From: an uncultured Clostridia bacterium
GTDB taxonomy: Bacteria > Bacillota > Clostridia > Christensenellales > Aristaeellaceae
Direction of reading: 5' to 3'
NCBI GenBank assembly: GCA_934647235.1
Contig: CAKUFG010000006.1
Span: 66,950 to 98,949 of the forward strand
DNA length: 32,000 nt
The position numbers and the translations under genes were made by a program. Under the pieces are notes generated by a model, which worked only from the letters and a program-made list of their open reading frames with translations, did not search any database and was not told the DNA's origin. This document shows, in pieces, positions 6,114 to 31,653 of the stretch (the first letter of the stretch is position 1; each line of letters starts with the position of its first letter).

Positions 6114-6154
6114 AAAAACACACCTTCGCAAGTTTTCCCTGCGAAGGTGTTTTA
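6114..6154. terminator. Bidirectional terminator between convergent genes
   Basis: ACACCTTCGCA (6120-6130) pairs with TGCGAAGGTGT (6140-6150). An A-run lies upstream and TTTT downstream. Confidence 0.75.
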
Positions 6155-7578: not shown

Positions 7579-7607
7579 AGTATAGCAGAAAAACCTCGCG
7601 CCGTCAA
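7579..7607 (-). promoter_or_regulatory. Sigma-70-type promoter for the YitT/S-component operon
   Basis: On the minus strand: TTGACG, 17 nt, TATACT. It sits about 155 nt upstream of the start codon. Confidence 0.55.
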
Positions 7608-7617
7608 AGCCGGGCAA

Positions 7618-7709
7618 GAAAGGGGACGAGGGGGCGAGAAAGGGGACGAGGGGGTACGTTACTTTCTTCACTGAAGAAAGTAACGTTCCCTTCGTTCTTT
7701 CCGTCCTCC
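7618..7709. repeat. Solo T element: two tandem purine-rich 20-mers, a 31-nt perfect palindrome and a pyrimidine-rich arm
   Basis: GAAAGGGGACGAGGGGG occurs twice (7618-7634, 7638-7654). The palindrome ACGTTACTTTCTTCACTGAAGAAAGTAACGT spans 7656-7686. TCCCTTCGTTCTTTCCGTCCTCC (7687-7709) ends directly at the GNAT stop codon. Confidence 0.85.
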
Positions 7710-8498
7710 TTAGAGCAGCGGGTACGCCTTGGGCGGCACGCCATGCGCGCGCAGCACCGCGTTCAGCCGCGCCATCGCGTCGTCATCCATGCCCGGCAGG
7801 GCGTGGATTTCGCGGGTGCTGAAACGGTTGAAATCGGGCAGATAGGCAATGCCAAGCGCACGCATGGCCTGCACGGCCTCGGCGGGCAGGCAGGCAAAGG
7901 CCAGCTCCGCTGCGGGCCGCTGCGCCGGGGTCTTGTAGGGCAGGGTGGCCTCATAGGCCGCCGCCTTGGCGGGATCCACCTCAAAAATGGGATCCTCGCG
8001 CCACACGCCGCTCACACCGTCCAGCGCGCTGGGCTGCAGCGCCATCGCCATCAGCGCGTCGCCCACGCCGTAATCATCGCTGATGCCGTATTCCCGCGCC
8101 GGACGGAAGCCAAAGCGCGGATAGTAATCAGGATGCCCGTGCAGGCACACGATGCCAAACCCCATGGCGCGCGCCTGGTCCAGCGCGTAGCGCAGCAGCG
8201 CCCCGCCCACGCCGCGGCCCTTCCAATCGGGCGCCACGCTGAGCGGGCCGAAGGTAATCGCATCGTGCCGCTGGCCATCGGGGCTGTCGATGCTGCCGTG
8301 GCTGAACATCACGTTTGCGATCACGCGGCCATCCTGCTCGGCCACGAAATCCAGCTCGGGGATAAAGCACGGCGCGTCGCGCAGGATGTGCGCCAGGTAG
8401 TGTTCAACGCAGCCCGGCTCAAACTCGCCCCAGAAGGCGTCGCGGGTCAGCAGCTCGACGGTGTAAAAATCCTGTTTATTTTCAAGACGAATATTCAT
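7710..8498 (-). CDS. GNAT-family N-acetyltransferase with a C-terminal extension of about 95 aa
   Basis: ATG at 8498 (MNIRLENKQDF...) lies 8 nt after GGAGG. GNAT core motif RGRGVGGALLRYAL. The C-terminal tail has helix-hairpin-helix-like repeats. Confidence 0.8.
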   Translation of the reverse strand: MNIRLENKQDFYTVELLTRDAFWGEFEPGCVEHYLAHILRDAPCFIPELDFVAEQDGRVIANVMFSHGSIDSPDGQRHDAITFGPLSVAPDWKGRGVGGALLRYALDQARAMGFGIVCLHGHPDYYPRFGFRPAREYGISDDYGVGDALMAMALQPSALDGVSGVWREDPIFEVDPAKAAAYEATLPYKTPAQRPAAELAFACLPAEAVQAMRALGIAYLPDFNRFSTREIHALPGMDDDAMARLNAVLRAHGVPPKAYPLL

Positions 8499-8653
8499 TT
8501 TCATTTCCTCCATATTTTGTGATAGGTGAATAGGGAGCAAGGACGAGGGGGAGAGACGAGGGGACGTTACTTTCTTCAGTGAAGAAAGTAACAAAGAACC
8601 GGTTTTGCGTAAAAGCTGCTGGAATTAAACTGAAAGACAGGATTGCTGTAGAG

Positions 8654-8777
8654 CCCCGTGGCAGGGAAAAACTTGAATCGCTCGGTCTGGAGCAAGCTCC
8701 GCCCGCGCGCTTTTGCCTTTTTCCCCTATGGCCGTGCTGCGCACGTCCGCGCCGATTAAAATCGGCGTGCCACGGGG
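8654..8777. repeat. X module, alpha type (copy X1)
   Basis: CCCCGTGGCA (8654-8663) and TGCCACGGGG (8768-8777) close a multi-hairpin domain. Confidence 0.7.
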
Positions 8778-8877
8778 GCGTAGTTGGATGCGGAACCCTT
8801 GTGCGGTGATTTGCAATAGCTGGAGAGTGTACTCACCCAAAGGCTTCTCCTTGAGGAGAGGCTCCGCCGTAGGCGGT

Positions 8878-8955
8878 GGTGAGGTGTAGACCACGCAGTG
8901 GTCGTTATCATAACTATATAAAAGATAACGCCGCTGCGGCGGCTACACCTCATCC
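8878..8955. repeat. Y module, cloverleaf-like four-way junction (copy Y-A)
   Basis: GGTGAGGTGTAG and CTACACCTCATCC close three hairpins (GACCAC-GCA-GTGGTC, GTTATC..GATAAC, CCGC-TGCG-GCGG). Confidence 0.7.
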
Positions 8956-9059
8956 GAGCGGCTAAAGCCGCCCACCTTCCCCTCCAAGGGGAAGGCTTTT
9001 GGTGACCGTTCTATCTTACACTCGCTTTCCGCTGCGTCTGATTCCCACACCCAACCACG

Positions 9060-9185
9060 CCCCTCGTGGCACGCTGATCGCAGATCAGCGCGGGCGTGCG
9101 CAGCACGACCAAGGGGGAAAGCAGGAAGCGAACGGAGGAAAGCTTGCTTTCATCCGGGCGGTTCAGGCTTTCACCTGCCACGGGG
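9060..9185. repeat. X module, beta type (copy X3), inverted relative to X1
   Basis: CCCCTCGTGGCA and TGCCACGGGG close the domain. Nearly identical to 31378-31501. Confidence 0.7.
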
Positions 9186-9301
9186 CGGGTGGCCAGGGCC
9201 ACACCCAGTTTTATTCAATTGACTTTCACGTCGCACGCAGCTTTCTTTGGTACTTTCTTGGGCTCCAAGAAAGTACCGTTTTCCTCGTCCCCCTCGTCCC
9301 C

Positions 9302-10312
9302 TTATCTCCGGTTCTTGCGGTTGTACCTGGCAATTTGCTTCATTTTTTCATGCTTGGCGGCCAGCTGCGCCGCGCGGTCGGATTCCGCCGTCAGCGCCTG
9401 ATAGCGCTGCCATAGCCCCGCGTCCAGCGCGCCGCTTGCCAGCGCGGCGCGCACGGCGCAGCCCGGCTCGCAGGTGTGGGTGCAGTTGGAAAAGCGGCAG
9501 CGGCCGATCAGCTCCTCCACCGGCGCAAAGCTGTCGCGCAGCCCCTCACGGGCGAAAAGCAGCCCCATCTCGCGCATGCCGGGGGTGTCGATAATCATCG
9601 CGCCGCCGGGCAGCATCAGCAGCTGGCGCGCGGTGGTGGTGTGCCGCCCCTTGCCATCCTGGGCGCGGATGGCGGCGGTTGCCTGCGCATCCTGTCCCAG
9701 CAGGGCATTGATCAGGCTGGATTTGCCCACGCCCGAGCTGCCTAAGATCACCAGCGTGCGGCCGGGGGCCAGATAGGGCACAAGCCCCGCCATGCCCGCG
9801 CCCGTGGCGGCCGATACCGCCAGCGCCGGGACGTCGGGAAAGCGCTGCTGCACGGCGGCCAGATAGGGCTGGGCATCGGCGCACAGATCGGCCTTGGTCA
9901 GCAGGATCACCGGCGCGCCCCCGCTCTGCAGGGCCAGCGCCAGCGTGCGCTCCAGCCGCGGCAGGTTAAAATCCTGATTGAGCGATTGCGCAATCAGCAC
10001 GGTGTCAAAATTGGCCGCCACGGCCTGGGCCACGCGCCCCGGCGTGGGATCGCGGCGCGCAAAGCAGCTGCGGCGCGGCAGGGTGCGCACAATGGCGCTG
10101 TCGCCCGCCTGCTGCCAGGCAAGCAGCACAAAATCGCCCACGGTGGGAAACGTCTCGCCGCCGTAGTAGTACGCGCCGCCGCGCAGGGTGGCAAAGCCCG
10201 CGCCCGCATCGCACACAATCTGATAGCGGCCGCGATGCTCGCCTACAACGCGCGCGGCCAGGCAGGGGGAGTAGTCGTTGGGGTCGGTATACCCATAAGC
10301 TGAGATATGCAA
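9302..10312 (-). CDS. rsgA: Ribosome small-subunit-dependent GTPase A
   Basis: Circularly permuted GTPase motifs (TKAD, GSSGVGKSS, DTPG) and a C-terminal zinc knuckle (CRFSNCTHTCEPGC). TTG at 10312 lies 8 nt after GGAGG and is preferred. The listed start at 10351 is also TTG. Confidence 0.85.
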   Translation of the reverse strand: MHISAYGYTDPNDYSPCLAARVVGEHRGRYQIVCDAGAGFATLRGGAYYYGGETFPTVGDFVLLAWQQAGDSAIVRTLPRRSCFARRDPTPGRVAQAVAANFDTVLIAQSLNQDFNLPRLERTLALALQSGGAPVILLTKADLCADAQPYLAAVQQRFPDVPALAVSAATGAGMAGLVPYLAPGRTLVILGSSGVGKSSLINALLGQDAQATAAIRAQDGKGRHTTTARQLLMLPGGAMIIDTPGMREMGLLFAREGLRDSFAPVEELIGRCRFSNCTHTCEPGCAVRAALASGALDAGLWQRYQALTAESDRAAQLAAKHEKMKQIARYNRKNRR

Positions 10313-12021: not shown

Positions 12022-12252
12022 GATACGAAAAGGGACGAGGGGAACGAGGAAACGGGGGAAACGTTACTTTCTTCAGTCATAGCGCCGCCGCAGGCGGCTG
12101 AGGGCGCGCAATTTTGCAAATTGCCGCCCGAAACCCGCGCTTGCCGCAAGGCAGTAGCGCGGGGCGTACAAGGAAAGTAACAAAGAACCTGTGTGTGACG
12201 TAAAAGTCAAGCTGATAAAACTGGGAGTGGCCCTGTCCACCTGCTGCCCCAC

Positions 12253-12372
12253 CCCCGTGGCAGGGAAAATTCGCGTGTCCGGATCGGCGCAAGCGCCATC
12301 CGTTCACTTGAATATTTCCCCTATGGCCTGGCTTCGCCAGCCCGCGCCGATTAAAATCGGCGTGCCACGGGG
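12253..12372. repeat. X module, alpha type (copy X2)
   Basis: CCCCGTGGCA (12253-12262) and TGCCACGGGG (12363-12372) close the domain. It shares the hairpin CGCCGATTAAAATCGGCG with X1. Confidence 0.7.
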
Positions 12373-12477
12373 CATGTTGGTTGATTGCGAAAACTCTGCG
12401 CGGCGATTAGCGGCTGTTGGAAAACGCACTCACCAAAAGGCTTCTCCTTGAGGAGAAGCTGTCAGCGAGAACTGACT

Positions 12478-12554
12478 GATGAGGTGTAGGCTGCGCAGCA
12501 GCCGTTAGCAAAGCTATATAGAGGATAACGCCGCAGCGGCGGCTACACCTCATC
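12478..12554. repeat. Y module (copy Y-B)
   Basis: GATGAGGTGTAG and CTACACCTCATC close three hairpins. Confidence 0.7.
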
Positions 12555-12777
12555 CGCTTCACTGCGTTCAGCACCTTCCCCTCGGAGGGGAAGGCTTCCG
12601 TAGGCTGTGCCAATGCAGCAGCATACCTTCGCCACTTGCAAAGCGCACGACTATAAAAGCCTTCTCCTAAACGGGAGAAGGTGTCGAGCGCACCGCGAGA
12701 CGGATGAGGGGGTTCCCTCAAACGTTCCCCATTCATCCCCTCCCCATCCTTAATTAGCAGTAAAAGGAGATAAAACA

Positions 12778-13893: not shown

Positions 13894-14151
13894 ATATGAA
13901 ATGCGCTATGCTTCAGGACAGAGAATCGGGTAAGATACATGTGGATTTTTATTGGTGAAATTTATAACTCTATAGCCGTTTTTAGTTTTAGGCAGGAAAA
14001 TGATTTGGAAAAACAGAACGAAGCAAAGGTTATGCTGCGGCATCAGCGATTGAAAGCCGCATATATGCAGACGCAGTGAAGCTGGACAAAGCAAATGCAA
14101 TGTGTTATTTTTTCTATGCTCAGGTACGCAAGTTAAGGGAGGCTGCATATC

Positions 14152-15903
14152 GTGGAAGGCCAGAAGAGAAGCATAAGGCGAGAGATTACGATTGCAATTT
14201 TAATCAGCGCGGCCATACAGCTTATTTTGGTTTGGATGCTGTTTTTGCTGCACTACGTAAATGCAGCAGCGATGGTTCAGCGTTATGTGATTGCGGACAC
14301 ACAAAAGAGCATGGCGCAAATGGATGCTTATCTAAAGCAGCAGATGAACACAGTGGTGGAACTGTCGTACAGCAATTTTATAGAAGCATATGCGAAAGCG
14401 ACGCATGCAAGACGATATGAAACATACCCTTATATTTCACAGGCGTTATACGAAATGCTCCTGGATCAGCAAACCGTTGGGTGTACGCTGCTCTTTGAGA
14501 ATGATACATCGCTGCGCATCGGCATAGGAGTGACTGATTATCTGCTGAAGGATGCAAGAAGCATTGGCGGATTTCAGCATTGGAGCGGGCAGAAGCGATC
14601 CTTACTTTTGTGGTCTGCACCGATCTATGGAAACGAACTGCTGCTGCAGAGACGGGGAGATTTCTGGATCGTTTTTGACATGGATGCATTGATGAAAAAG
14701 TACTTTGGCGCTGTTTCTGCCTGCTTCAGCGGGAAAGAATTGATTGGCTGCTCCTATGACCCGCAAAAGCTGGATCCGTTTGAAAATAAGGCTGCCGCGT
14801 CTTTTTTGCAAGGTGAAACCGGCACGGTTCATATTGATGGAGACGTATATGTTTATGCGCATTCTGTCAGCAGCGTTTTGGACTGTGATGTGCTTGCGCT
14901 GTATAAAGAAGCGGATATGATCAAGACGGATTCCGGGTTTTTGATGTCCTGTGCCCTATTCAGCTTGATTATCTGCGGGATTTCCAGCCTTGTGCTGTTT
15001 TCGCTGCAAACCAGGGTCAGCGCTCCAATCAATGGCCTGTGCAGTCAGGTAAGGGGGATCAGAAACGGCAGCCAGAAGAAAATTGGTGAAAGCGACGGCA
15101 GCTTTACTGAACTGGACTACCTGACGGATGAGATCAACAAGCTGCTGGATACACTGGCGGAACAAGCGATTGTCGAAAACCAGCTGCAGCAAAACCTGCT
15201 GGCATCGCGCACACATTATATGCAGGAACAGGCATTGCGCATGCAGACACAGATTAATCCGCACTTCCTGTACAACAACCTGGAATGCATCCGGGGAATG
15301 GCGCGGGATGGCGCATGGGATATAATTTGCCGGATGAGTACATCGATGGCGCGCATTTATGCCTATGCGGCCCGCCGCAGTGCATTGACAGCTGCGCTGC
15401 GGGAGGAGCTGCAGTGTGTAAAAGAATATGAAACCATTATCGAATTGCGTTATGACGGACAGTTCCGCTTTGAATGCGCTATCGCGCCGGAATGTCTGGA
15501 TATGCAGCTGCCTCGAATGACTCTGCAGCCTGTATGCGAGAACAGCGTTATCCATGGCAGAAGAATGGATGGCACCCAGCAGGTTATACGAATAGCGGCG
15601 TGCGTGCAGGGTGAGTATATGGAGCTGACGGTGTGCGATAATGGCAGGGGAATACCGCAAAAACGCATGGAAGAGCTGAACGAAGAAATATACCAATGGC
15701 GCGAGAAAAAAGGAGAAAAGCTGTATGAGGACCGCATAGGGCTGATTAATATCAGCCAGCGTTTGTTTATCCTTTATGGCAAAAACAGCAGCATTCACAT
15801 GGAACAAGACCAGGATAACGGGACGCTGACGCGCATCCGAATTCCCAAGCGCCTGCAGGAGACATCCACGCAGACACCCGATGAGAATACACAAAATCGC
15901 TGA
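14152..15903 (+). CDS. Sensor histidine kinase, YesM/LytS-type (His_kinase + HATPase_c)
   Basis: GTG start 9 nt after AAGGGAGG. Two TM segments flank an extracytoplasmic domain of about 230 aa. Motifs QINPHFLYNNLECI and CDNGRGIP are present. Confidence 0.85.
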   Translation: MEGQKRSIRREITIAILISAAIQLILVWMLFLLHYVNAAAMVQRYVIADTQKSMAQMDAYLKQQMNTVVELSYSNFIEAYAKATHARRYETYPYISQALYEMLLDQQTVGCTLLFENDTSLRIGIGVTDYLLKDARSIGGFQHWSGQKRSLLLWSAPIYGNELLLQRRGDFWIVFDMDALMKKYFGAVSACFSGKELIGCSYDPQKLDPFENKAAASFLQGETGTVHIDGDVYVYAHSVSSVLDCDVLALYKEADMIKTDSGFLMSCALFSLIICGISSLVLFSLQTRVSAPINGLCSQVRGIRNGSQKKIGESDGSFTELDYLTDEINKLLDTLAEQAIVENQLQQNLLASRTHYMQEQALRMQTQINPHFLYNNLECIRGMARDGAWDIICRMSTSMARIYAYAARRSALTAALREELQCVKEYETIIELRYDGQFRFECAIAPECLDMQLPRMTLQPVCENSVIHGRRMDGTQQVIRIAACVQGEYMELTVCDNGRGIPQKRMEELNEEIYQWREKKGEKLYEDRIGLINISQRLFILYGKNSSIHMEQDQDNGTLTRIRIPKRLQETSTQTPDENTQNR

Positions 15904-15963
15904 AGATGTCCATTTTTCTGCCAGATTAAGCATGATATAATGCGAAAAAAGGAGGCTGATCTC

Positions 15964-16899
15964 ATGGTAAGTGCAAAGGATGCGCGGCGCGCCGTTCCCA
16001 TATGGAAGCGCATGCTGCAGGCGAAGTACATTTATTTGATGCTGATTCCCGCCATTTTATACTACGCGGTATTTGTATATAAGCCTATGTACGGCGTGCT
16101 GATGGCATTTCAAAAGTACAACGTCCGTAAGGGAATCTGGGGCAGCAAATGGATTGGGTTTGCAAACTTTGAACGCTTATTCAACAGTCCGGCGGCGCTT
16201 CGGGCGGTGATGACTACACTGGAAATCAGCGTTACCCGTTTATGTATTGAGTTTTGCTGCCCGATTATACTGGCGATTTTCATCAATGAAATGCGAGGGA
16301 CAAAGCTCAAGCGCGTATACCAGACGATATACACTTTTCCCCATTTTTTGTCCTGGGTAATCGTGGGTTCCATTATCAAGATGATCTTCCGCGAAAGCGG
16401 TTTGGTGAATTCGCTGCTTGGTTTGATGGGGGTTGAACCGATCAATTTTCTGGCATCCAAAAGCTTTTTCCGGCCGCTGCTGTATGGCAGCTCGATATGG
16501 AAGGGCGTGGGCTGGGCGGCCATTATTTATATGGCGGGCATTGCCGGCATCAGCCCTGAGCTGTATGAGGCGGCTGAGGTAGACGGAGCTGCCCGGCTGC
16601 AGCGGATCATTCATATTACGCTGGCCGGCATTATGCCCGTTATCATTATTCAGCTGATCCTGTCGGTCGGCGGCCTGCTGGGCGGCTCCTTTGATCAGAT
16701 TTATAACCTGCAAAATGCGGTGGTTAAATCTGTGGCGACAACCATTGATATTTATGTATATGATATCACCTTCAGCGCGGTGCCTGATTATGGGTTCTCT
16801 ACAGCGGTGGGACTTTTCCGATCTGTAATTAATATCATCTTGATGTTTATTGCCAACGGCGTTATCAAAAGGATTAACGGCCAGGGCTTGTTAGGCTAA
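15964..16899 (+). CDS. Sugar ABC transporter permease (LplB/YesP-like)
   Basis: ATG at 15964 lies 8 nt after GGAGG. The N-terminus resembles LplB (WKRMLQAKYIYLMLIPAILYYAVFVYKPMYG). Confidence 0.85.
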   Translation: MVSAKDARRAVPIWKRMLQAKYIYLMLIPAILYYAVFVYKPMYGVLMAFQKYNVRKGIWGSKWIGFANFERLFNSPAALRAVMTTLEISVTRLCIEFCCPIILAIFINEMRGTKLKRVYQTIYTFPHFLSWVIVGSIIKMIFRESGLVNSLLGLMGVEPINFLASKSFFRPLLYGSSIWKGVGWAAIIYMAGIAGISPELYEAAEVDGAARLQRIIHITLAGIMPVIIIQLILSVGGLLGGSFDQIYNLQNAVVKSVATTIDIYVYDITFSAVPDYGFSTAVGLFRSVINIILMFIANGVIKRINGQGLLG

Positions 16900-16918
16900 A
16901 GGAAAGGGAGAAAGCACG

Positions 16919-17881
16919 ATGAACGCATCTGCCAAATATCAGAAAAATGTGCAGGCTGCGGCGCTGCGCACTGGCTTCAAAAAGAAAAAAAGAAAAAAGC
17001 TGGACCTGCTGGATATCATTATTTATACAGTGCTTACGCTGCTGGCGGTGTCTATTATCATTCCCATTTATCATGTAATTCTGGTTTCACTGGCGAGCAA
17101 CAGAACCTACATGACCAATCCGGGCATGATGTTTCTTAAGCCTTCAGATATTACGCTGATTAACTATAAGTACATTTTTGAGTCGCCTATTTTAGCAACC
17201 GGCTATAAATCGACGCTTTTCATCACCGTATTAGGCACGGTTTACGGCATGAGCATTACGCTGCTGGCAGCATATGCGCTTTCCAGGCCGGCTTATCCAG
17301 GCAAAAAGCTGTTCTTTGTGCTGTTTATTCTGATTCCAATGTACTTTGGCGGCGGGATGATTCCGGCATACCTGAACCTGCGCGATCTGGGGCTGCTGAA
17401 CAAGCAGATAACCATTGTTATTATGATGGGCGTATCTGGATTCAACATGCTGATCATCAAGAGTAATATCGAGCAGATGCCCGAGGGCTTGCTGGAGGCG
17501 GCCAGACTGGACGGCGCTTCGGAGCTGGTTATATTTGTGCGCATCGTTTTGCCGCTGCAGCTGCCTATCATTGCTACGTTTTCCTTGTTTACGGCGGTAG
17601 GATACTGGAACGAGTGGTTCTGGCCCATGATGGTGCTGGACAAATCCGAGCAGTGGCCGCTGCCCCTGGTGCTGCGGGCCGTGGTGAACAGCGGCATCGG
17701 CAATTTCCAGGATGCTGCCAGCGAAAGCATGCAGTCCTATAAGAATTTGCAGGATTCGGTTTCCGCTACCGGCACTACCATGGCCACGCTGTTTATGACA
17801 ATGCTTCCCATCATGGTAACATATCCTTTCCTGCAAAAGTACTTTGTAAAGGGCACCCTTGTGGGCGCAATTAAAATGTAA
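16919..17881 (+). CDS. Sugar ABC transporter permease (LplC/YesQ-like)
   Basis: 320-aa polytopic protein. EAA-like loop LEAARLDGASELVIFVRIVLP. Confidence 0.85.
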   Translation: MNASAKYQKNVQAAALRTGFKKKKRKKLDLLDIIIYTVLTLLAVSIIIPIYHVILVSLASNRTYMTNPGMMFLKPSDITLINYKYIFESPILATGYKSTLFITVLGTVYGMSITLLAAYALSRPAYPGKKLFFVLFILIPMYFGGGMIPAYLNLRDLGLLNKQITIVIMMGVSGFNMLIIKSNIEQMPEGLLEAARLDGASELVIFVRIVLPLQLPIIATFSLFTAVGYWNEWFWPMMVLDKSEQWPLPLVLRAVVNSGIGNFQDAASESMQSYKNLQDSVSATGTTMATLFMTMLPIMVTYPFLQKYFVKGTLVGAIKM

Positions 17882-17961
17882 TCAATGCCTGGGTATACAC
17901 GGGCTTGATCGTAATCGTAATGTTTCTCTCATGACCGACCCAAAAGAAAGGAGCACTCCCG

Positions 17962-19518
17962 ATGAAAAAATGGTTGACCCTGCTTCTGGCGCTTGCCCTG
18001 CTGCTGCCTCACTGTGCTGCACTGGCGGACGAGCCCGCTTACGGCCCTTATGATAAGCATGTGAGCTTTACTGCCAGCCAGTATAGCCAGATCACTGAAG
18101 GCGGCGATTATACCCACGATGAAGTGTACTATAAGCTGCAGGACATGTTCAATTTTGACTGGGAGCTGTATGCCGTGGATGGCAGCGCCTGGCATGAAAA
18201 GAACACCATGTGGATTACCGGCGGCACGATGCCTGATATCCTGTTCTTTGGCTGGAATGCCGTCGAATACCAGCAGTATGCCGAGCAGGAGCTGATTAAG
18301 CCCTTGCCGGACGGGTGGGAAAGCAAGTATCCTAACCTGGCTGCGCAGGTGGAGGCTACGGGCATTGCCGAAGCCATCAAGGTAAACGGAAAGACCTATG
18401 GTATTCCGCATACGATTATTCATCTGGTCGGCCCCAAGAACTTTGTTTACGCTATGCATACCCTGTATTACTATCGCCTTGACTGGGCGAAGGAGCTGGG
18501 CTATGATTGGGGCGTAAGCTGCACGCTGGATGAATTTACGAGCTATCTGCGTGACTGTAAGGAAAAATTCGGCAGCGTCGGCATGGTGCAGAGCACCGGC
18601 ACGCTGCTTAAACCGCTTCTGTATCAGTTCAGCAAAGGCTACAATGCGATCTACAAGAATGAGGAAGGCAAGTACGTGCTTGGCTTTGCGGACAAGGGCA
18701 CGGTTGAAGGCACTCAGTTCCTGCGCGATATGTACAACGAGGGCCTGATCTCCAAGGAGTATTACCTGAGCAACTATAATGAATGGTATGCCGGTAAGGC
18801 GGCTGTTATCGAATATTGGGGCGGTCCGCTGCATCCCCAGGATATGGCGAACAACTGGCTTGCTGCCGCCAGCGAACCCAACGCCAAAACCCTGGATGAT
18901 GTGAAGAATATTATTGGCACTGTTACTGTGACCGATAATAACGGCGTGTATCATGCGGCAGGTACGCAGGGCAATTTCTGCTTCGGCTCCCTGTTCAGTC
19001 CCGATCTGGATGACGAAACCTTCGATCGTATTCTGGCCATGTATGATTATTTTGCTACGCTGGAGGGCTTTGAGCTGACGCAGCTGGGTATTCGCGGCGT
19101 GGATTGGGACAAGGATGAGGAAGGCCATTATACGCTGCTGTGCCCCGAGATTCTGGATGGTACCTATGCTGTGATCCGTGAAAAGTATCCCTCGATGTAT
19201 TATCTGTACCTGCGCAACGTGCTGTCCGATTCTGCTGCCTATATCAATCCGCTGATCGATTCTTATTGGCGGCAGATGAGCGACGATATGTACGAATTCC
19301 GCTGCAGCCAGGATATCGTGCCCTTTGACGCGGATCTGGCTTTCTATTCCAGCGATGCGGCGAATCATTATTCCATCAACTGGAACACTGCGGTGGATCG
19401 GCTTGTGCTGGACAGCAGCCTGGATATCGAAACTGAAGTGGCGCGCCTGATTGAGGAAAACCGCTTTATGTGGGAGCCGCTTATCAACGAACTGAATGAG
19501 AAATTCGGCGCCAAATAA
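17962..19518 (+). CDS. Large extracellular sugar-binding protein (LplA/LipO-like SBP)
   Basis: 518 aa. Signal peptide MKKWLTLLLALALLLPHCAALADE, with a Cys but no canonical lipobox. Size and context fit Lpl-type SBPs. Confidence 0.8.
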   Translation: MKKWLTLLLALALLLPHCAALADEPAYGPYDKHVSFTASQYSQITEGGDYTHDEVYYKLQDMFNFDWELYAVDGSAWHEKNTMWITGGTMPDILFFGWNAVEYQQYAEQELIKPLPDGWESKYPNLAAQVEATGIAEAIKVNGKTYGIPHTIIHLVGPKNFVYAMHTLYYYRLDWAKELGYDWGVSCTLDEFTSYLRDCKEKFGSVGMVQSTGTLLKPLLYQFSKGYNAIYKNEEGKYVLGFADKGTVEGTQFLRDMYNEGLISKEYYLSNYNEWYAGKAAVIEYWGGPLHPQDMANNWLAAASEPNAKTLDDVKNIIGTVTVTDNNGVYHAAGTQGNFCFGSLFSPDLDDETFDRILAMYDYFATLEGFELTQLGIRGVDWDKDEEGHYTLLCPEILDGTYAVIREKYPSMYYLYLRNVLSDSAAYINPLIDSYWRQMSDDMYEFRCSQDIVPFDADLAFYSSDAANHYSINWNTAVDRLVLDSSLDIETEVARLIEENRFMWEPLINELNEKFGAK

Positions 19519-19553
19519 AACAATCTGACCTGCCAAAGGGCGGAGGTGTGAAG

Positions 19554-20270
19554 ATGTACCGAGCTATGATTGTGGACGATGACAGATGGGCCCTGAAGGA
19601 CATCTGCTCCACGTTTCATTTTCAACAGCAGGGCTTTGAGCTGGTTTCTTCCTGCACAAGCGGAGAAGAAGCCGAGGCTGCATTTGAACACCTTCGCCCT
19701 GATGTTTTGATTACGGATATCCAGCTGGGCGGTATGGACGGATTGGAGCTGATGCACCGCTGCCTGGCTATGAAGAACGATCTGATTACAATTATCGTAT
19801 CCGGACACAGCGATTTCAGCTACGCAAAGGACGCTCTGAACGGGGGCGCGACGCACTACCTGCTTAAACCGATTGACGGAAGCGAAGCTGTTCTTGCGCT
19901 GCAAAAATGCTACGCTGCGCTTACCTCGCGCAAACCGAAGGATAACGAAGACTGCATAGCGAGCATCTGCAGCTATGTTGGCGCGCATCTGTCGCCCTCT
20001 CTGACGCTGGCGGAAATTGCAAACCAGTATTATCTGAACGTTACCTATCTTTCAGAACTGTTTCAAAGAAGAATGGGCGTTTCATTTTCTGCGTATAAGA
20101 AAAAATGCATGCTGGAGAAGGCGTGCGATGTGCTTAAGCAGAGGGATTCCCGCGTAATGGAGGCGTCCGAAAGCTGCGGCTTCCAGGATATTCATTATTT
20201 CTCTCGCTGGTTCAAGGAACAAACAAAAATGAGCCCCAAGGAATACAAAGAGCTATTTTGCCGCCGCTGA
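19554..20270 (+). CDS. Response regulator with AraC-type HTH output (YesN-like, compact)
   Basis: ATG at 19554 lies 7 nt after GGAGG. REC domain (IVDDD, VLITDIQLGGMDG, LLKP) plus a single AraC HTH (FQDIHYFSRWFKEQTKMSPKEYK). Confidence 0.85.
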   Translation: MYRAMIVDDDRWALKDICSTFHFQQQGFELVSSCTSGEEAEAAFEHLRPDVLITDIQLGGMDGLELMHRCLAMKNDLITIIVSGHSDFSYAKDALNGGATHYLLKPIDGSEAVLALQKCYAALTSRKPKDNEDCIASICSYVGAHLSPSLTLAEIANQYYLNVTYLSELFQRRMGVSFSAYKKKCMLEKACDVLKQRDSRVMEASESCGFQDIHYFSRWFKEQTKMSPKEYKELFCRR

Positions 20271-20289
20271 TAAATGGAGGATAATAAAA

Positions 20290-21570
20290 ATGACGGAATG
20301 GCATTATGCATTATACGGTGACGGCGTTCACGACGATACGGACGCCATTCAGGAGCGCTTGGACAGCCGAATAGCCTGCGTGTATCTGCCCGCGCCGAAA
20401 AAACATTATTGTATTAGCCGGACGCTGAAAATTCACAGCAATCAGACGCTGCGTTTGGATTCAACCACGGAAATCCGCCTGATGCCTAAATGCGATTTCT
20501 GCATGATTACCAATGCAGACCCGCGCGGTGAAGATCAGCATATCACCGTCGAAGGCGGAATATGGAACATGGACAATATGAACCAGACGCCCTTTATGGC
20601 GCATTTGAAGGTGCTGCCGGGCGATCGGTATCCGCGCAACTATGCGCCGGGCTTTCCGCCGCTGAGCGATAAATGGAATAATGCTGCAAATCAGGATGGC
20701 CAATACGATCTCCCGGAAGAATGCGGGTATATGAGCGCCGAGGGCAGCATCTGCACAATGGTGTTTTCTCATATCAAATATTTTACGCTGCGCAATCTGA
20801 CCATTAAGAACCCGCGATATTTTGCAACCTATATGTTCTATCTTCAGTATTTTACCATTGAGAATATCACCTTTGATTTCAATTACGGCAATCCATATGC
20901 AATTCATATGGACGGCATTCATCTGGACGGCGGCTGCAGGTTTGGGCATATCCGCAACCTGCAGGGACGCTGCTTTGACGATTTGCTGGCGCTCAACGCA
21001 GACGATTCGATCTATGGTCCCATCGAGGATATCAGCGTTGACGGACTATACAGCGATAATTGCCACAGCGCTGTGCGCATGCTTTCCACAAAGTCCTGGA
21101 TTCGCAACATCAATATACAAAATGTATACGGTACTTATTGGCAGTATGCAGTCGGCATCACGCGCTTTCATTATCGTCCTGACGAGGTGAACAGCCTGGG
21201 GCTGTATGATAACATAATGCTGAAAAATATCTGTGTTTCCAAGGCGCCCAGATACAGCCTGTACTGCAAGGATGACAGCTATGTTTACCCGCTGATTTTT
21301 ATCGAGCGTTTGCTGCATATCGGCAGGCTGCATATTGAAAATCTACACCGGTTGGAAAAGGTTACGCCGATCGATACCATTTATGTGGGCGAAAAAACGG
21401 ATATAAGCGAAATGGTGATTACTGATTCTTCGCAGGAGAATCGCCTTGCGGAGCCGTTCCCATTCCTGCGCAGCGAGGGCATGATTGAAAAACTGATTAT
21501 TTCCAATACAGACAGCGGAAAGGACGATCTTTTGGCGGGAAACATGCCAAAGCTGTTTTTTTCAAGATGA
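20290..21570 (+). CDS. Right-handed beta-helix protein, GH28-related/pectate-lyase-superfamily-like; no signal peptide
   Basis: The N-terminal motif YGDGVHDDTDAIQERLDS is typical of the Pectate_lyase_3-type fold. There is no hydrophobic N-terminus. Confidence 0.6.
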   Translation: MTEWHYALYGDGVHDDTDAIQERLDSRIACVYLPAPKKHYCISRTLKIHSNQTLRLDSTTEIRLMPKCDFCMITNADPRGEDQHITVEGGIWNMDNMNQTPFMAHLKVLPGDRYPRNYAPGFPPLSDKWNNAANQDGQYDLPEECGYMSAEGSICTMVFSHIKYFTLRNLTIKNPRYFATYMFYLQYFTIENITFDFNYGNPYAIHMDGIHLDGGCRFGHIRNLQGRCFDDLLALNADDSIYGPIEDISVDGLYSDNCHSAVRMLSTKSWIRNINIQNVYGTYWQYAVGITRFHYRPDEVNSLGLYDNIMLKNICVSKAPRYSLYCKDDSYVYPLIFIERLLHIGRLHIENLHRLEKVTPIDTIYVGEKTDISEMVITDSSQENRLAEPFPFLRSEGMIEKLIISNTDSGKDDLLAGNMPKLFFSR

Positions 21571-22841
21571 TCCAGGAGAAGCTTTCTATGAACAGGCTGC
21601 GTGGATTGGGCAGAATTCTCTCGGCTCAAATTGGGCTGAACATGCTGAGCAAATCCTATAAACGCTATTTGCTTACCTATATGCTGTTCACCATTGGCGG
21701 AACGATATCGAGCAGCTACTTCAGCTTTTTTCTTCTGCGTGCAACGGGCAGCGAAAGCTCGCTGCGCATATACAACCTGCTGATTGCCTGCGTGCAGCCG
21801 TTTATCATGCTGCCTGCGCTTGCAGTGCTGAAACGATGGTCGGTATCAGTGTGCATGCGCATTGGTCTGCTTATTCACACTGCGGCGTATGCGCTGCTGG
21901 CAGCCAGCGGAAATGCGGATATGGCTACTGTATATGCTGTATCGGCAATGCTCTCGTCGGGCAATGCATTTATCTTTACGGCTTATACGCCGCAGCAGCT
22001 GGCTTATGCAACGGATGAAAACCGGGATGCTTGCTACGGGGTCGTCAGCGTATTGAGTACAATTGTCAGCCTTGTGCTGCCCCTGACAACGGGGCTGTTT
22101 ATCAGCCGCTTTGACGATTTGACGGGCTATTCCGTTCTGTTTGCAGCATCATCGCTGATTACCTTAGGCAGCTTCGCCGCTTCTTTTCGGCTGACGCCTG
22201 TGGTATATGGAGATCGGCGGCAGAAAAACGTACTGCGCAGAACGATGAAGGCTTTCCTGGGCAGCAAGAAAATTTGGGCCAGCATGATTGCAACCATGCT
22301 GGACGCTATGCGCGCGCACGGATTCGGCTTTTTTTCTGCATTGCTGGTATTTGATCTGATTGGCAGAGAAAGCGTAATGGCGGTGTTCAGCGTTGCGACA
22401 ACCATTGTGAACATGATGATGAGCATTGCTTACACGCGGATGGCAACGCCGCGTAACCGCGGCTGGCTGATGCTGCTGGGCGCGGTGGGCTATACCATCG
22501 CCGTAGCGATCGTATGCCTGGACCATACGTTTACAGGGTATATCATGTATGCGCTGCTGAGCACTATTGTAAGCGTATTCATTTCCAATCCCGTTTTAAC
22601 CAGCTATCTCAGCGCAGTGCAAAACGATTCTTTCCTGTGTCAGCATGGCGCGGAGGTGCACTTGCTGCGTGAAGTCTTTGTGGCCTCAGGGCGCGTAATT
22701 GGCTTGCTGCCAGCTTTTTTGATGCCTGACCCGACAGAATACGCGGCAGTTATGATGCTTTTGTTCGCCGCCGTGCAGATTCCTGCTGCGCTGCTGACAA
22801 AGTACCTGCAGCGCAGGGTTAATTTGGAGCAATCGACATAA
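21567..22841 (+). CDS. MFS-type transporter
   Basis: About 12 hydrophobic spans. The ATG overlaps the preceding stop (ATGA). Internal starts are possible. Confidence 0.7.
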   Translation: MIQEKLSMNRLRGLGRILSAQIGLNMLSKSYKRYLLTYMLFTIGGTISSSYFSFFLLRATGSESSLRIYNLLIACVQPFIMLPALAVLKRWSVSVCMRIGLLIHTAAYALLAASGNADMATVYAVSAMLSSGNAFIFTAYTPQQLAYATDENRDACYGVVSVLSTIVSLVLPLTTGLFISRFDDLTGYSVLFAASSLITLGSFAASFRLTPVVYGDRRQKNVLRRTMKAFLGSKKIWASMIATMLDAMRAHGFGFFSALLVFDLIGRESVMAVFSVATTIVNMMMSIAYTRMATPRNRGWLMLLGAVGYTIAVAIVCLDHTFTGYIMYALLSTIVSVFISNPVLTSYLSAVQNDSFLCQHGAEVHLLREVFVASGRVIGLLPAFLMPDPTEYAAVMMLLFAAVQIPAALLTKYLQRRVNLEQST

Positions 22842-22905
22842 ATAGCCGGGACAAGGGCGGGCTTGTCTGCTGACAAGGGCGGGAATGATAATAAGAAAGC
22901 CAAAT

Positions 22906-22953
22906 AAAAAGCAGCGCATCTGCCGAAGCAATTTCGGCAGATGCGCTGCTTTT
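22906..22953. terminator. Bidirectional terminator between the convergent MFS and dehydrogenase genes
   Basis: Perfect 17-bp stem GCAGCGCATCTGCCGAA (22911-22927) pairing with TTCGGCAGATGCGCTGC (22933-22949), flanked by AAAAA and TTTT. Confidence 0.85.
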
Positions 22954-22981
22954 GGGGCTGCATCGGGCATGAGAGCATGCG

Positions 22982-23932
22982 TCAGCACAGATTCATTGGT
23001 TCCCCATCCAGCCAGGCATAGAGATTCTGGAAAACGATCCGCGCGCGGCGCAGCATGCTTTCCTCACTGGCGAAGGCGATGTGCGGGGTCAGGATGATGT
23101 TGGGCGCGTGCAGCAGGGGCTCGCTGTCGTCCAGCGGCGGCTCGCGATCATACACATCCACCGCCGCGCCAGCCAGATGGCCGCTGCGCAGCGCGCCGCA
23201 CAGCGCCTGCGAATCCACCAGCGCGCCGCGGGCGCAGTTGATAAACAGCGCGCCGGGCTTCATTTGGGCAAACTCGGCTTCGCCGATCATTTTGTGCGTC
23301 TGCGCGCAGGCGGGCGCATGCAGGGTAACGATGTCGCTGCTTTCCAGCACCTCGCGCAGCGAGGCATACTGCACGCCCAGCTGGCGCGCCTGCTCCATGG
23401 GTTTGGGATCATAGGCTACCACCCGCGCGCCGAAGGCCAGCATCAGCCGCGCCACGCGCAGCCCGATGCGTCCCAGCCCCACGATGCCCACCGTGCGCTC
23501 GGCAATCTCGCGGCCGATCAGCCCCACGCTGCCCTGATGCGCGCGCACCGCGGCGTCGCAAGCAGGCAGCCTGCGCAGCAGCGCAATGGCCATGCCCACC
23601 GTCAGCTCGGCCACGCTCTGATTGGAATAATTGGCCGCGTTGCTCACCAGCACGCCGCGCGCGCGGCACGCCTCCATGGGCACATGATCCACGCCCGTAA
23701 AGGCCACGTCGATGTATTTGAGCGCGGGATTTTCCGTCACCGCCTCGGCGGGAAAGGGCGTGTTGGCGATGATCACCGCATCCATGCCCTGCGCGCGGCG
23801 GATCACCTCCTGCGGGGAATCCGCCTTGGTATCATAGACGGTCAGCTCATGCCCGCGTTCCAGCACGGGCGCGGCCATCTCCCGCAGCATTTCTTCGCTT
23901 ACGTTCAAGGGCTCAAGCAGCGCGATTTTCAT
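22982..23932 (-). CDS. D-isomer-specific 2-hydroxyacid dehydrogenase family protein (NAD-binding)
   Basis: GIVGLGRIGLRVARL dinucleotide-binding motif, plus PGALFINCARG and HIAFAS motifs. AAGGAGG RBS. Confidence 0.85.
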   Translation of the reverse strand: MKIALLEPLNVSEEMLREMAAPVLERGHELTVYDTKADSPQEVIRRAQGMDAVIIANTPFPAEAVTENPALKYIDVAFTGVDHVPMEACRARGVLVSNAANYSNQSVAELTVGMAIALLRRLPACDAAVRAHQGSVGLIGREIAERTVGIVGLGRIGLRVARLMLAFGARVVAYDPKPMEQARQLGVQYASLREVLESSDIVTLHAPACAQTHKMIGEAEFAQMKPGALFINCARGALVDSQALCGALRSGHLAGAAVDVYDREPPLDDSEPLLHAPNIILTPHIAFASEESMLRRARIVFQNLYAWLDGEPMNLC

Positions 23933-30878: not shown

Positions 30879-30955
30879 TGTGAGGGCCGTAGCCGCCGCA
30901 GCGGCGTTATCTTATATAGTTATGATAACGGCTGCTTCGCAGCCTACACCTCATC
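30879..30955. repeat. Y module, degenerate copy (Y-C1, inverted)
   Basis: The three internal hairpins are intact. The closing helix is interrupted (GTGAGGGCCGTAG versus CTACACCTCATC). Confidence 0.55.
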
Positions 30956-31199
30956 AGTCAGCTCTCGCTGACAGCTTCTCCTCAAGGAGAAGCCTTTTGG
31001 GTGATCGCACTCTCCAACGCATGTAAACTGCCGCGCTCCCCCCTCATCCGTCTCGCTGTGCGTTCGACACCTTCTCCCGAGGGAGAAGGCTTTTATAGTC
31101 GTGCTTTTGCTAAACTAAGCTTCGAGAACGCACTACCGCATTGGCACAGCCGCCAAAAGCCTTCCCCTTTGAGGGGAAGGTGGCGAATGTAATGAGCCG

Positions 31200-31274
31200 G
31201 ATGAGGTGTAGCCGCCGCAGCGGCGTTATCTTATATAGTTATGATAACGGCTGCTTCGCAGCCTACACCTCATC
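31200..31274. repeat. Y module (Y-C2, inverted)
   Basis: GATGAGGTGTAG and CTACACCTCATC close three hairpins. Confidence 0.7.
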
Positions 31275-31377
31275 AGTCAGCATTCGCTGACAGCTTCTCC
31301 TCAAGGAGAAGCCTTTTGGTGGCTGTTCTTTCCAGCTATCGATAGCCGTTATGCTTGATTTTCGCACCTAGCCATCG

Positions 31378-31501
31378 CCCCGTGGCACGCTGATCGCAGA
31401 TCAGCGTGGGCGTGCGCAGCACGACCAAGAGGAAAAGCAGGAAGCGAACGGAGGAAAGCTTGCTTTCATCCGGACGGTTCAGGCTTTCACCTGCTACGGG
31501 G
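31378..31501. repeat. X module, beta type (copy X4)
   Basis: CCCCGTGGCA (31378-31387) and TGCTACGGGG (31492-31501) close the domain. By manual alignment it differs from 9060-9185 by about five substitutions and one 2-nt indel. Confidence 0.7.
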
Positions 31502-31653
31502 GTAGGGCGGCAGGTGGCCAGGGCCACTCCCTGTTTTCGTCCAATAGACTTTTACGTCACACACAGGTTCTTTGTTACTTTCTTCACTGAAGAAAGTAAC
31601 GTCCTCCCCGTTTCCCCGCCCTCCTCGTCCCTCCATGCCAGAAAGGAACCGTC

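What the first reader, a model, noticed from the sequence alone, without database searches (positions are those of the whole stretch)
8541..9301. 761-bp mosaic structured element with hairpin-bearing terminal inverted repeats of about 60 nt fills the whole rsgA-GNAT spacer
There is no credible ORF in this block.
- Left end (8541-8600): purine-rich arm GGACGAGGGGGAGAGACGAGGGG, then the palindrome GTTACTTTCTTCAGTGAAGAAAGTAAC, then AAAGAACC.
- Right end (9241-9301): the inverted counterpart, CTTTCTTTGG, then GGTACTTTCTTGG-GCT-CCAAGAAAGTACC, then GTTTTCCTCGTCCCCCTCGTCCCC.
- The palindrome differs between the two ends on both arms at once (T/A becomes G/C, CA/TG becomes GG/CC), so the changes are compensated.
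- The interior is X-alpha (8654-8777), the Y unit (8834-9004) and an inverted X-beta (9060-9185). All three recur in the other copies.

The architecture resembles MITE, BIME or BOX-type modular repeats, but I do not recognise the sequences as any named family.
Basis: seen in the sequence. Interest (0 to 1): 0.8.

Follow-up and report, generated by a model that had tools for sequence, protein, structure and literature searches.

The report
Mosaic hairpin repeats filling a gene spacer
The 761-bp block is non-coding repeat DNA made of two head-to-head copies of a ~300-nt multi-hairpin unit around a third unit, and its outer hairpin belongs to a motif able to form a DNA or RNA triple helix that recurs at the edges of intergenic repeats in many bacterial phyla and in phages.

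Summary
Window 8541-9301 is a non-coding quasi-palindrome lying between the rsgA stop codon and the GNAT start codon. It has hairpin-bearing inverted ends and modules that recur three more times in the window.

It is not one MITE. It is two independent ~300-nt units (purine arm, T hairpin, Z, X, W) facing each other across a REPIN-like Y unit. The two arms are no more alike than random copies. I found no target duplication and no transposase.

The family is abundant in an uncultured high-GC gut Clostridia lineage, with at least 44 distinct sites. T usually sits just after a stop codon. Strains with an identical TpiA protein differ by whole modules. These deletions end in shared local palindromes or in microhomology.

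Rfam has no match, and I found no paper describing the motif.

The unexpected part is the T hairpin plus its flank, NN-TAC-TTTCTT-loop-AAGAAA-GTA-N'N'-CAAAGAA. It occurs in at least six phyla and in phage contigs. Three features covary: the outer base pairs, a flank that mirrors the purine arm, and pairing between loop and flank. Together they fit an intramolecular triplex with a pseudoknot.

Its function and its means of spread are inferred, not shown.

The parts
8541..8565 (+). Purine-rich arm of the left unit (GGACGAGGGG repeats), 39 nt upstream of the GNAT start codon
   Evidence: A purine arm lies upstream of T in 38 of 44 sites.
8566..8592 (.). T core hairpin, left: GTTAC-TTTCTT-CAGTG-AAGAAA-GTAAC
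   Evidence: Arm type GTTAC/GTAAC is the commonest of four in the lineage.
8593..8598 (+). Mirror flank AAAGAA, the mirror image of the purine arm AAGAAA(G); candidate third strand of a triplex
8599..8652 (+). Z linker module of the left unit
   Evidence: A fixed spacing of about 65 nt separates T from X in nearly all copies.
8653..8778 (+). X module (X-alpha): closing stem CCCCGTGGC/GCCACGGGG around three hairpins
   Evidence: Alignment A1 of 28 copies: 98.5% of cells paired and 12 pairs changed on both sides.
8779..8833 (+). W module of the left unit
   Evidence: Conserved for about 100 nt beyond X across sites.
8834..9004 (+). Y unit: three-way junction with GTAG-hairpin ... hairpin-CTAC (REPIN-like) between two flanking hairpins. 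Absent from the same site in strain L009.
9005..9059 (-). W module of the right unit (inverted)
9060..9186 (-). X module (X-beta), inverted; 95% identical to 31378-31501
9187..9240 (-). Z module of the right unit (inverted)
   Evidence: (I4)
9241..9248 (-). Mirror flank of the right unit (CTTTCTTT on the + strand, AAAGAAAG on the - strand)
9249..9277 (.). T core hairpin, right: GGTAC-TTTCTT-GGGCTCC-AAGAAA-GTACC
   Evidence: In the lineage, loop GGAGCCC goes with flank AAAGAAGGC in 41 of 42 copies.
9278..9301 (-). Pyrimidine arm on the + strand, which is the purine arm of the right unit on the - strand. It abuts the rsgA stop codon at 9302-9304.
7611..7711 (.). Solo form: purine arm, T core (7658-7684), pyrimidine arm, just after the GNAT stop codon. 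Strain L002 has a 793-nt interior between two cores at this same site.
12024..12757 (+). Related mosaic in the pgk-tpiA spacer: purine arm, T core split by module I (about 12077-12169), flank, Z, X (12248-12373), W, Y (12432-12608), V, pyrimidine arm
30880..31632 (-). Related mosaic in the opposite orientation: V', two Y copies, X (31378-31501), Z, flank, T core (31574-31600), pyrimidine arm next to the downstream start codon
9302..10312 (-). rsgA (flanking gene)
   Evidence: Pfam RsgA_GTPase, E = 4.9e-47
7713..8501 (-). GNAT acetyltransferase (flanking gene)
   Evidence: Pfam Acetyltransf_7, _9 and _1

Best explanation
The block is selfish or neutral repeat DNA, not a gene. It is a composite of three members of one lineage-specific family of non-autonomous, multi-hairpin intergenic repeats.

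Two units of about 300 nt (purine arm, T hairpin with AAAGAA flank, Z, X, W) sit head to head. Each has its T end against a flanking gene. A REPIN-like Y unit lies between them.

Shown:
- The order inside the unit is fixed.
- The family occupies many sites.
- T faces the neighbouring gene, usually a stop codon.
- Strains differ by whole modules.
- Deletions end in local palindromes that occur in both inverted arms, where they act as direct repeats, or in microhomology.
- Sub-hairpin variants are shuffled among copies.

Inferred:
- Copies spread and are reshuffled at the DNA level through folded single strands. The routes would be ectopic gene conversion and template switching between dispersed copies, with T as the recombination-prone end. 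No element-encoded transposase would be involved.
- Template switching or co-transfer of short palindromes produces the 'compensated' changes.
- For the host, the result is a long, fully structured untranslated spacer in the rsgA-GNAT transcript. It is tolerated because it leaves the stop codon and the ribosome-binding site intact.
For: - T lies about 65 nt upstream of X, in the same orientation, in nearly all of about 110 X copies from 98 gut-metagenome contigs. These represent 44 distinct sites.
- T faces a same-strand stop codon in 34 of 43 sites, with a median of 38.5 nt from stop to core.
- Arms of 13 inverted pairs are 0.775 identical, against 0.777 +/- 0.092 for random copies.
- Contigs encoding an identical TpiA protein have GNAT-rsgA spacers of 102 to 803 bp.
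- Y is present in the window and absent in L009. Site A is a single core in the window and two cores plus 793 nt in L002. Deletions end at GGAAACG, at CCGT, or at the hairpin CTGGC-TTC-GCCAG present in both arms.
- At the pgk-tpiA site, the Y of L002 is the type found at 8834-9004 in the window.
- Module I sits in a T loop in 32 of 32 contexts. Its right junction is uniform and its left junction varies.
- X variants for hairpins 1, 2 and 3 combine freely.
- T stems show essentially no G:T (1 cell among 160 cores; at most 1 per outer pair among 101 copies).
- Mismatches between the two arms are strand-symmetric: 21 G:T against 21 A:C.
- X and Y occur in both orientations relative to transcription.
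- There is no Rfam family and no protein signal.
Against: - I observed no new insertion into a repeat-free site, so how new sites are colonised is unknown.
- T faces same-strand stop codons far more often than divergent starts (34 against 8). G:U-type pairs on one strand of X and Y would also fit a role for one strand as RNA or as single-stranded DNA.
- The near-identical T sequence in distant phyla is not explained by passive recombination. It implies either a trans-acting factor or a structural function.
- The transposase search was weak.
Confidence: 0.55

Rival explanations
1. The block is a classical MITE: a single 761-bp deletion derivative of a DDE-type insertion sequence. A transposase acting in trans would bind its ~60-nt inverted ends, and each insertion would create a short target duplication.
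For: - The ends are inverted repeats (83.9% over 60 nt).
- The block is non-coding and multi-copy.
- Pairs of facing T ends 125-700 bp apart occur in other taxa, including the Ralstonia GMI1000 megaplasmid and Cupriavidus.
Against: - The arms are no more alike than random copies.
- Most sites have one unit only.
- No flanking direct repeats appear at any polymorphic junction of this family.
- The only pair of T ends about 3 kb apart encloses secA, not a transposase.
- No transposase domain appears among the called genes of ten 20-kb loci.
Confidence: 0.05
2. The modules are functional RNA elements within the mRNAs. T would be an end-protecting hairpin or U.A-U triple helix. The long rod would be an RNase III processing site that uncouples the two cistrons and shields the untranslated spacer from Rho.
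For: - T abuts stop codons on the sense strand in 34 of 43 sites.
- All four window copies lie between co-directional genes.
- X and Y have conserved multi-hairpin folds with changes on both sides of pairs and some fixed G:U positions.
- In three Clostridia a T hairpin lies 1-2 nt before the mature 5' end of tRNA-Lys or 5S rRNA, on the strand able to form U.A-U triples.
- In AT-rich genomes and phages a -10-like box directly precedes T.
Against: - X and Y occur in both orientations relative to transcription, even inside this one block.
- Whole modules come and go between strains with identical neighbouring proteins.
- T stems avoid G:U almost completely.
- Arm mismatches show no strand bias.
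- There is no terminator-like T tract on the transcribed strand.
Confidence: 0.2
3. The family is mobilised as single-stranded DNA by a host-encoded HUH (Y1) enzyme, as in the REPIN-RAYT and IS200/IS605 systems. The T hairpin would be the binding site and CAAAGAA the cleavage site. The hairpin stem itself would read that site through base triples.
For: - A stem with a variable loop (3-9 nt) and a conserved single-stranded 3' flank is the layout of HUH substrates (own knowledge).
- The flank covaries with the stem as a mirror image.
- The Y core is a GTAG-hairpin doublet, the hallmark of RAYT substrates (PMC3733652).
- The orientation bias could reflect coupling to replication.
Against: - No Y1-transposase-like sequence appears in the ~0.9 Mb of lineage DNA in hand (best E = 0.16, queries from memory).
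- No precise insertion event was seen.
- The GTAG hairpins of Y have stems of only 5-6 bp.
Confidence: 0.15

Closest known systems
BIMEs / REP mosaics of enterobacteria
   Same: Intergenic mosaics of palindromic units in alternating orientation. They lie mostly after gene ends, are transcribed with the neighbouring genes, and vary between strains.
   Different: The units here are 125-170-nt multi-hairpin modules in a fixed order (T-Z-X-W), not 35-nt REPs. The host is a Firmicute. The end motif is A/T-rich and unrelated to GTAG- or CGTC-tagged REPs.
REPIN-RAYT systems
   Same: The Y core is an inverted doublet of GTAG-headed hairpins that folds into one long hairpin.
   Different: No RAYT was found, although the test was weak. 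The stems are short. Y is only one module of the mosaic.
BOX elements of Streptococcus pneumoniae
   Same: Modular non-coding repeats of a Firmicute, with a variable number of modules and strong predicted folding (own knowledge).
   Different: There is no sequence relation. The module grammar is different. Here the end module is shared across phyla.
TMECO / BoxC intrastrand triplex motif (Holder et al. 2015, PMC4666352)
   Same: The same class II layout: pyrimidine arm, loop, purine arm, short linker, mirror copy of the purine arm. It is multi-copy and intergenic, and it is linked to loci that are rearranged between strains.
   Different: TMECO is G/C-rich (CCCTCNCCC...) and was reported in Proteobacteria. 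T is A/T-rich, has two extra covarying Watson-Crick pairs and loop-flank pairing, and occurs in at least six phyla and in phages. It is not mentioned in that paper.
MITEs
   Same: Non-coding, multi-copy, with inverted ends when two units face each other.
   Different: No target duplication and no parent insertion sequence. The arms are independent copies.
MALAT1/MEN-beta ENE triple helix upstream of a tRNA-like RNase P site (own knowledge)
   Same: In rRNA operons of three Clostridia, the order U-rich, U-rich, A-rich is followed within 1-2 nt by a tRNA or by 5S rRNA.
   Different: This is only an analogy. It is bacterial and unproven, and most T copies are not next to tRNAs.
Rfam whalefall-1 (RF01762)
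   Same: The left part of every Y copy gives the same weak match: two hairpins followed by GGUGAGG..GAC.
   Different: The scores are 13-15.5 bits against a gathering score of 37. It is not a member.

Membership tests
MITE | Terminal inverted repeats that belong to one element | tested here: not met
   Inverted ends exist. However, arms of 13 such pairs are as diverged as random copies, and most sites carry a single unit.
MITE | Short target-site duplication flanking the element | tested here: not met
   Polymorphic junctions end in microhomology or in shared palindromes. No flanking duplication was seen for this family.
MITE | Parent insertion sequence with the same ends | tested here: inconclusive
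   None was found in the window, in ten 20-kb loci or in 98 metagenome contigs. The whole genome was not available.
REP/BIME | Short (20-40 bp) palindromic unit with an unpaired GTAG or CGTC head | tested here: not met
   T, Z, X and W lack it. Only the Y core has GTAG-hairpin ... hairpin-CTAC (definition from PMC3733652).
REP/BIME | Mosaic clusters of units in alternating orientation in extragenic space | tested here: met
REPIN-RAYT | A cognate RAYT (Y1 transposase) gene flanked by the repeats | tested here: inconclusive
   tblastn with three Y1 proteins written from memory against about 0.9 Mb gave a best E of 0.16. The whole genome was not searchable.
Class II intrastrand triplex motif (TMECO-like) | Pyrimidine arm, loop, complementary purine arm, short linker, mirror repeat of the purine arm | tested here: met
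   - CTTTCTT-loop-AAGAAAG-TA-NN-C-AAAGAA.
- At least 8 stem variants each carry their own mirror flank.
- 93 of 337 variant hairpins have an exact 6-nt mirror downstream, against 2 upstream and 7 as direct repeats.
Class II intrastrand triplex motif (TMECO-like) | Triplex actually forms (CD, NMR, footprinting) | not testable with these tools
   This needs biophysics on T oligonucleotides.
Class II intrastrand triplex motif (TMECO-like) | TMECO consensus CCCTCNCCC-N3-6-GGGNGAGGG-N3-GGGNGAGGG | tested here: not met
   T is A/T-rich. The G-rich arms (GACGAGGGG repeats) only resemble it.
Any Rfam family | Score at or above the family's gathering threshold | tested here: not met
   - 0 hits in the window.
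- Only sub-threshold noise in the three mosaics.
- No hit on T in 20 loci from other taxa.
BOX element | boxA-boxB(n)-boxC sequence modules of pneumococci | not tested
   No BOX reference sequence was at hand. The resemblance is architectural only (own knowledge).

The most novel reading that the evidence does not exclude
The T end (NN-TAC-TTTCTT-loop-AAGAAA-GTA-N'N'-C-AAAGAA plus a loop-complementary tail) is an undescribed, pan-bacterial and phage-borne nucleic-acid device. It would be an intramolecular triple helix capped by a short pseudoknot helix, and its stem sequence would specify its own flank.

It would serve either as the enzyme-independent or HUH-read recombination and cleavage site that seeds and reshuffles intergenic repeats, or as a MALAT1-like RNA end cap next to genes, tRNAs and 5S rRNA.

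The 761-bp block would then be one local outgrowth of a universal system.
Probability: 0.3. Interest if true: 0.9.

Novelty: new variant of a known kind. Interest (0 to 1): 0.7.

Why it matters
Locally, the finding explains why spacers between housekeeping genes in an abundant gut Clostridia lineage are 0.1-0.8 kb long and differ between strains. It also warns annotators about spurious ORFs and about false 'structured RNA' calls in such spacers.

More generally, it gives a Firmicute counterpart to BIME and REPIN biology, with a clear rule: local palindromes shared by inverted arms act as deletion end-points.

The wider point is the T motif. It is one short sequence with three independent kinds of covariation, found from Patescibacteria to Proteobacteria and in phages. 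If it is confirmed as a real triplex, the long-debated question of whether intramolecular triplexes have a biological role in bacteria could be tested directly with a natural, conserved substrate.

Tried and rejected
- **boxA mimicry.** TTCTTTG resembles the Firmicute boxA. However, the spacer boxA of Papillibacter reads CACCTTGAAAACT, so I dropped this.
- **tRNA, tmRNA, riboswitch, ribozyme.** ARAGORN found none and Rfam found none. The CUGAUGA in Y lies inside a stem.
- **Autonomous element between facing T ends.** The only ~3-kb pair encloses secA.
- **Gene-specific cis-regulator.** The neighbours of T in ten taxa are unrelated housekeeping genes: miaA, accA, serA, parA, a glycogen-debranching enzyme and others.
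- **Concerted evolution of the two arms.** Window and L009 suggested it. It was rejected on 13 pairs.
- **'Split hairpin' model.** This proposed insertion between a pre-existing core and its pyrimidine arm. Only some sites have a far-end pyrimidine tract, and 15 of 44 have none.
- **T in E. coli.** No match.
- **The genome-contig scan.** My own arithmetic gives about 60 chance matches to the bare 18-base pattern in 596 Gb. The argument therefore rests on features outside the pattern: the flank is present in 103 of 122 hits, and the outer pairs are 97% and 86% Watson-Crick.
- **Organism name.** It was obtained only as 'Clostridiales/Eubacteriales bacterium' MAGs.

Full report
**1. The observation**

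The sequence is as described.
- On the left: a purine arm (8541-8565), a perfect 27-nt palindrome (8566-8592) and AAAGAACC.
- On the right: CTTTCTTT (9241-9248), a 29-nt palindrome (9249-9277) and a pyrimidine arm ending at 9301.
- The next base begins the rsgA stop codon. The GNAT start codon lies 39 nt to the left of the block.
- Both gene identities were confirmed with Pfam. None of the six internal ORFs has a family match.
- The 60-nt ends are 83.9% identical as inverted repeats, and similarity continues inward for about 290 nt at 73%.
- The hairpin pattern occurs four times in the window against none expected.
- The X and Y modules recur in the pgk-tpiA spacer (12.0-12.76 kb) and at 30.9-31.6 kb. 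A short form lies at 7.6-7.7 kb.
- As a single strand the block folds into one long rod (-445.6 kcal/mol, z = -24).

**2. Source and comparison set**

The exact TpiA protein of the window is on many gut-metagenome contigs and on MAGs labelled Clostridiales/Eubacteriales bacterium.
- One contig (L005) is identical to the window over 6.6 kb.
- Ten such loci, all encoding the identical TpiA, have GNAT-rsgA spacers of 102 to 803 bp and pgk-tpiA spacers of 388 to 756 bp.
- A pattern built on the invariant closing stem of X retrieved 98 further contigs, nearly all from the human gut.

**3. Anatomy of the family**

- In these contigs T lies about 65 nt upstream of X, in the same orientation, in almost every one of about 110 copies.
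- After removing redundancy there are 44 distinct genomic sites.
- The repeat unit is therefore: purine arm, T hairpin, AAAGAA flank, Z, X, W. It is about 300 nt long and is followed by Y or by another module (V).
- T always faces outward. A long same-strand ORF ends 14-105 nt (median 38.5) before the core in 34 of 43 sites. A divergent gene starts there in 8.
- Only 13 sites have two units facing each other as in the window. Their arms are 0.775 identical, against 0.777 +/- 0.092 for random pairs of copies.
- The 761-bp block is thus two independent units plus Y. It is not one element with terminal repeats.

**4. Structure of the modules**

- X folds into a closing stem with three hairpins. 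98.5% of cells are paired, against 91.3% when partners are shuffled and 41-50% when partners are slid. Twelve pairs changed on both sides.
- Y is a three-way junction whose core reads GTAG-hairpin ... hairpin-CTAC. One internal hairpin has four covarying pairs.
- The variants of each small hairpin combine freely among copies, so much of this 'covariation' is exchange of short palindromic cassettes.
- X and Y occur in both orientations relative to the flanking genes.
- Mismatches between the two long arms are strand-symmetric: 21 G:T against 21 A:C.
- A few fixed G:U-type positions in X and Y hint that one strand matters more.

**5. How the family changes**

- Y is present in the window and absent at the same place in L009.
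- At the pgk-tpiA site, strain L002 carries the Y type that the window has at 8834-9004.
- The solo hairpin at 7658-7684 corresponds in L002 to two cores enclosing 793 nt. Because the core is a palindrome, the two cores are direct repeats, and recombination between them leaves exactly the solo form.
- Another deletion joins the same small hairpin of X in the two inverted arms. Others end at GGAAACG or CCGT.
- Some deletions run into rsgA and shorten it.
- Module I (about 90 nt) sits in the loop of a T core in 32 of 32 contexts. Its right junction is uniform and its left junction is subtype-specific. That is the pattern expected from conversion tracts that extend into Z.
- I found no clean empty site and no target duplication for this family. 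I also found no transposase in the DNA in hand.

**6. The T end is not lineage-specific**

- The hits share features that were not in the pattern. AAAGA lies on exactly one side in 103 of 122.
- The consensus is NN-C-AAAGAA. The two base pairs outside the pattern are 97% and 86% Watson-Crick, use all four pair types and include at most one G:T.
- The 3' half of the loop is complementary to the bases right after the flank. The mean longest match is 3.75, against 2.55 +/- 0.14 when loops and flanks from different loci are combined.
- In the window's lineage, loop GGAGCCC goes with flank ...GGC in 41 of 42 cores, and CAGG with CCTG.
- The hosts include Clostridia, Bacilli, Gamma- and Betaproteobacteria, Bacteroidota, Thermodesulfobacteriota, Lentisphaerae, Patescibacteria and Ignavibacteriales. 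Finished replicons are among them: the Ralstonia GMI1000 megaplasmid and a Cupriavidus chromosome.
- Fifty-nine viral contigs also carry it.
- The hairpin lies at the outer edge of non-coding blocks. The median distance to a gene is 80 nt on the hairpin side and 250 nt on the flank side. The neighbouring genes are unrelated housekeeping genes.
- Facing pairs 125-700 bp apart occur in several taxa.

**7. A triplex reading of T**

- The flank is the mirror image of the purine arm (AAGAAAG, then AAAGAA).
- Hairpins with other pyrimidine arms carry the matching mirror flank. Examples: AAGAGAG with AGAGAA (mostly phage contigs, next to canonical copies), AGAAAAG with AAAAGA, AGGAAAG with AAAGGA, GAGAAAG with AAAGAG.
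- In all, 93 of 337 variant hairpins have an exact 6-nt mirror downstream. The controls give 2 upstream and 7 as direct repeats.
- This is the layout of a class II purine-motif intrastrand triplex, as in TMECO/BoxC of E. coli (PMC4666352).
- On the complementary strand the same bases allow a T.A-T / C+.G-C triplex, or U.A-U in RNA.
- In either geometry the tail after the flank runs antiparallel to the 3' half of the loop. This explains the loop-flank pairing (inference).
- The near absence of G:T suggests that both strands, or the duplex DNA, are constrained.
- That paper also links such motifs to loci that are rearranged between strains, which fits section 5.

**8. Other contexts of T**

- In Papillibacter, Agathobaculum and Flavonifractor a T hairpin lies 1-2 nt before the mature 5' end of tRNA-Lys or 5S rRNA inside rRNA operons. 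It is read on the pyrimidine strand.
- In AT-rich genomes and in phages a -10-like box directly precedes T.
- These contexts keep an RNA role open.

**9. Comparison with what is known**

- Rfam has no family for any part. The best match is a repeated sub-threshold hit of whalefall-1 on the left part of Y.
- Four literature searches found REP/BIME, REPIN, MITE and TMECO work, but nothing on this sequence.
- The family works like BIME/REPIN/BOX mosaics but fails the MITE tests.
- T fits the architectural definition of a class II triplex motif but not the TMECO consensus.

**10. Verdict**

- The finding is real and the block is not a gene.
- It is a new variant of the known class of mosaic palindromic intergenic repeats.
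- What T does, and how units reach new sites, remain inferences.

Noticed in passing
window 6116-6150; L002:2510-2745; L284:3681-4038 vs L226:6797; L269:6450-6660 vs L264:4927: A second, unrelated non-coding repeat family of about 210-360 nt (CAGGCTGTCGAAAAA ... GTCAGCTAAAGCAGACTT ... TTTGACAA) shows true presence/absence between strains. In L002 it is flanked by a 35-nt duplication of a terminator-like hairpin that is single in the window. In L284 it is flanked by a 7-nt duplication, AAATGCC.
   Followed up: partly
window 13897-22982: A 9.1-kb gene block (histidine kinase, sugar ABC transporter permeases, response regulator and others) is absent from strain L002, which joins the flanks directly.
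   Followed up: no
L003:6816-7766; L006:6738-7709 (orthologues of window 9302-10312): Deletions in the repeat spacer run into the 3' end of rsgA. They give shorter RsgA proteins (316 and 323 aa instead of 336) with altered C-termini.
   Followed up: partly
L004, L007, L008 (orthologous region of window 7713-8501): The GNAT gene is missing in three strains. There rsgA is preceded by an FMN-binding flavoprotein reductase gene.
   Followed up: no
window 7579-7607 (- strand): A near-consensus sigma-70-type promoter (TTGACG, 17 nt, TATACT, with an extended TG) lies directly after the solo T hairpin, ahead of the YitT-like gene.
   Followed up: no
L042:1778-1799 and about 1445-1475; L088:212-235; L082:206-229: Inside rRNA operons of three Clostridia, a T-type hairpin with its mirror flank ends 1-2 nt before the mature 5' end of tRNA-Lys or 5S rRNA. 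The Papillibacter 5S copy has the variant stem CTTTTCT/AGAAAAG with the matching flank.
   Followed up: partly
L139:1930-2170, and about 30 similar viral contigs among L132-L190: Low-GC phage contigs carry tandem hairpins with stem CTCTCTT/AAGAGAG and flank CAGAGAA beside a canonical T copy. Each is preceded by AT-rich -10-like boxes and followed by a GGCTCGCTTCGCTCGCC hairpin.
   Followed up: partly
L131:2590-2640 and 2820-2860; L139:2085-2105; several proteobacterial loci (L113, L118, L094): A second short motif, (A)ACTCGCT(G/T)CGCTC(A), recurs in hairpin loops of T-bounded elements in Ralstonia and other Proteobacteria, and as CTCGCTTCGCTC in phage contigs. The stems around it differ with compensation.
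   Followed up: no
window 8841-8891, 12438-12472, 31266-31314: Every Y copy gives the same sub-threshold match to Rfam whalefall-1 (13-15.5 bits; the gathering score is 37).
   Followed up: partly
L049:2413-2450 and 2895-2930: A Moraxellaceae MAG carries G-rich hairpins (CCCTCTC ... GAGAGGG ... GGGGTGAGGG) of the TMECO type close to a T copy.
   Followed up: no
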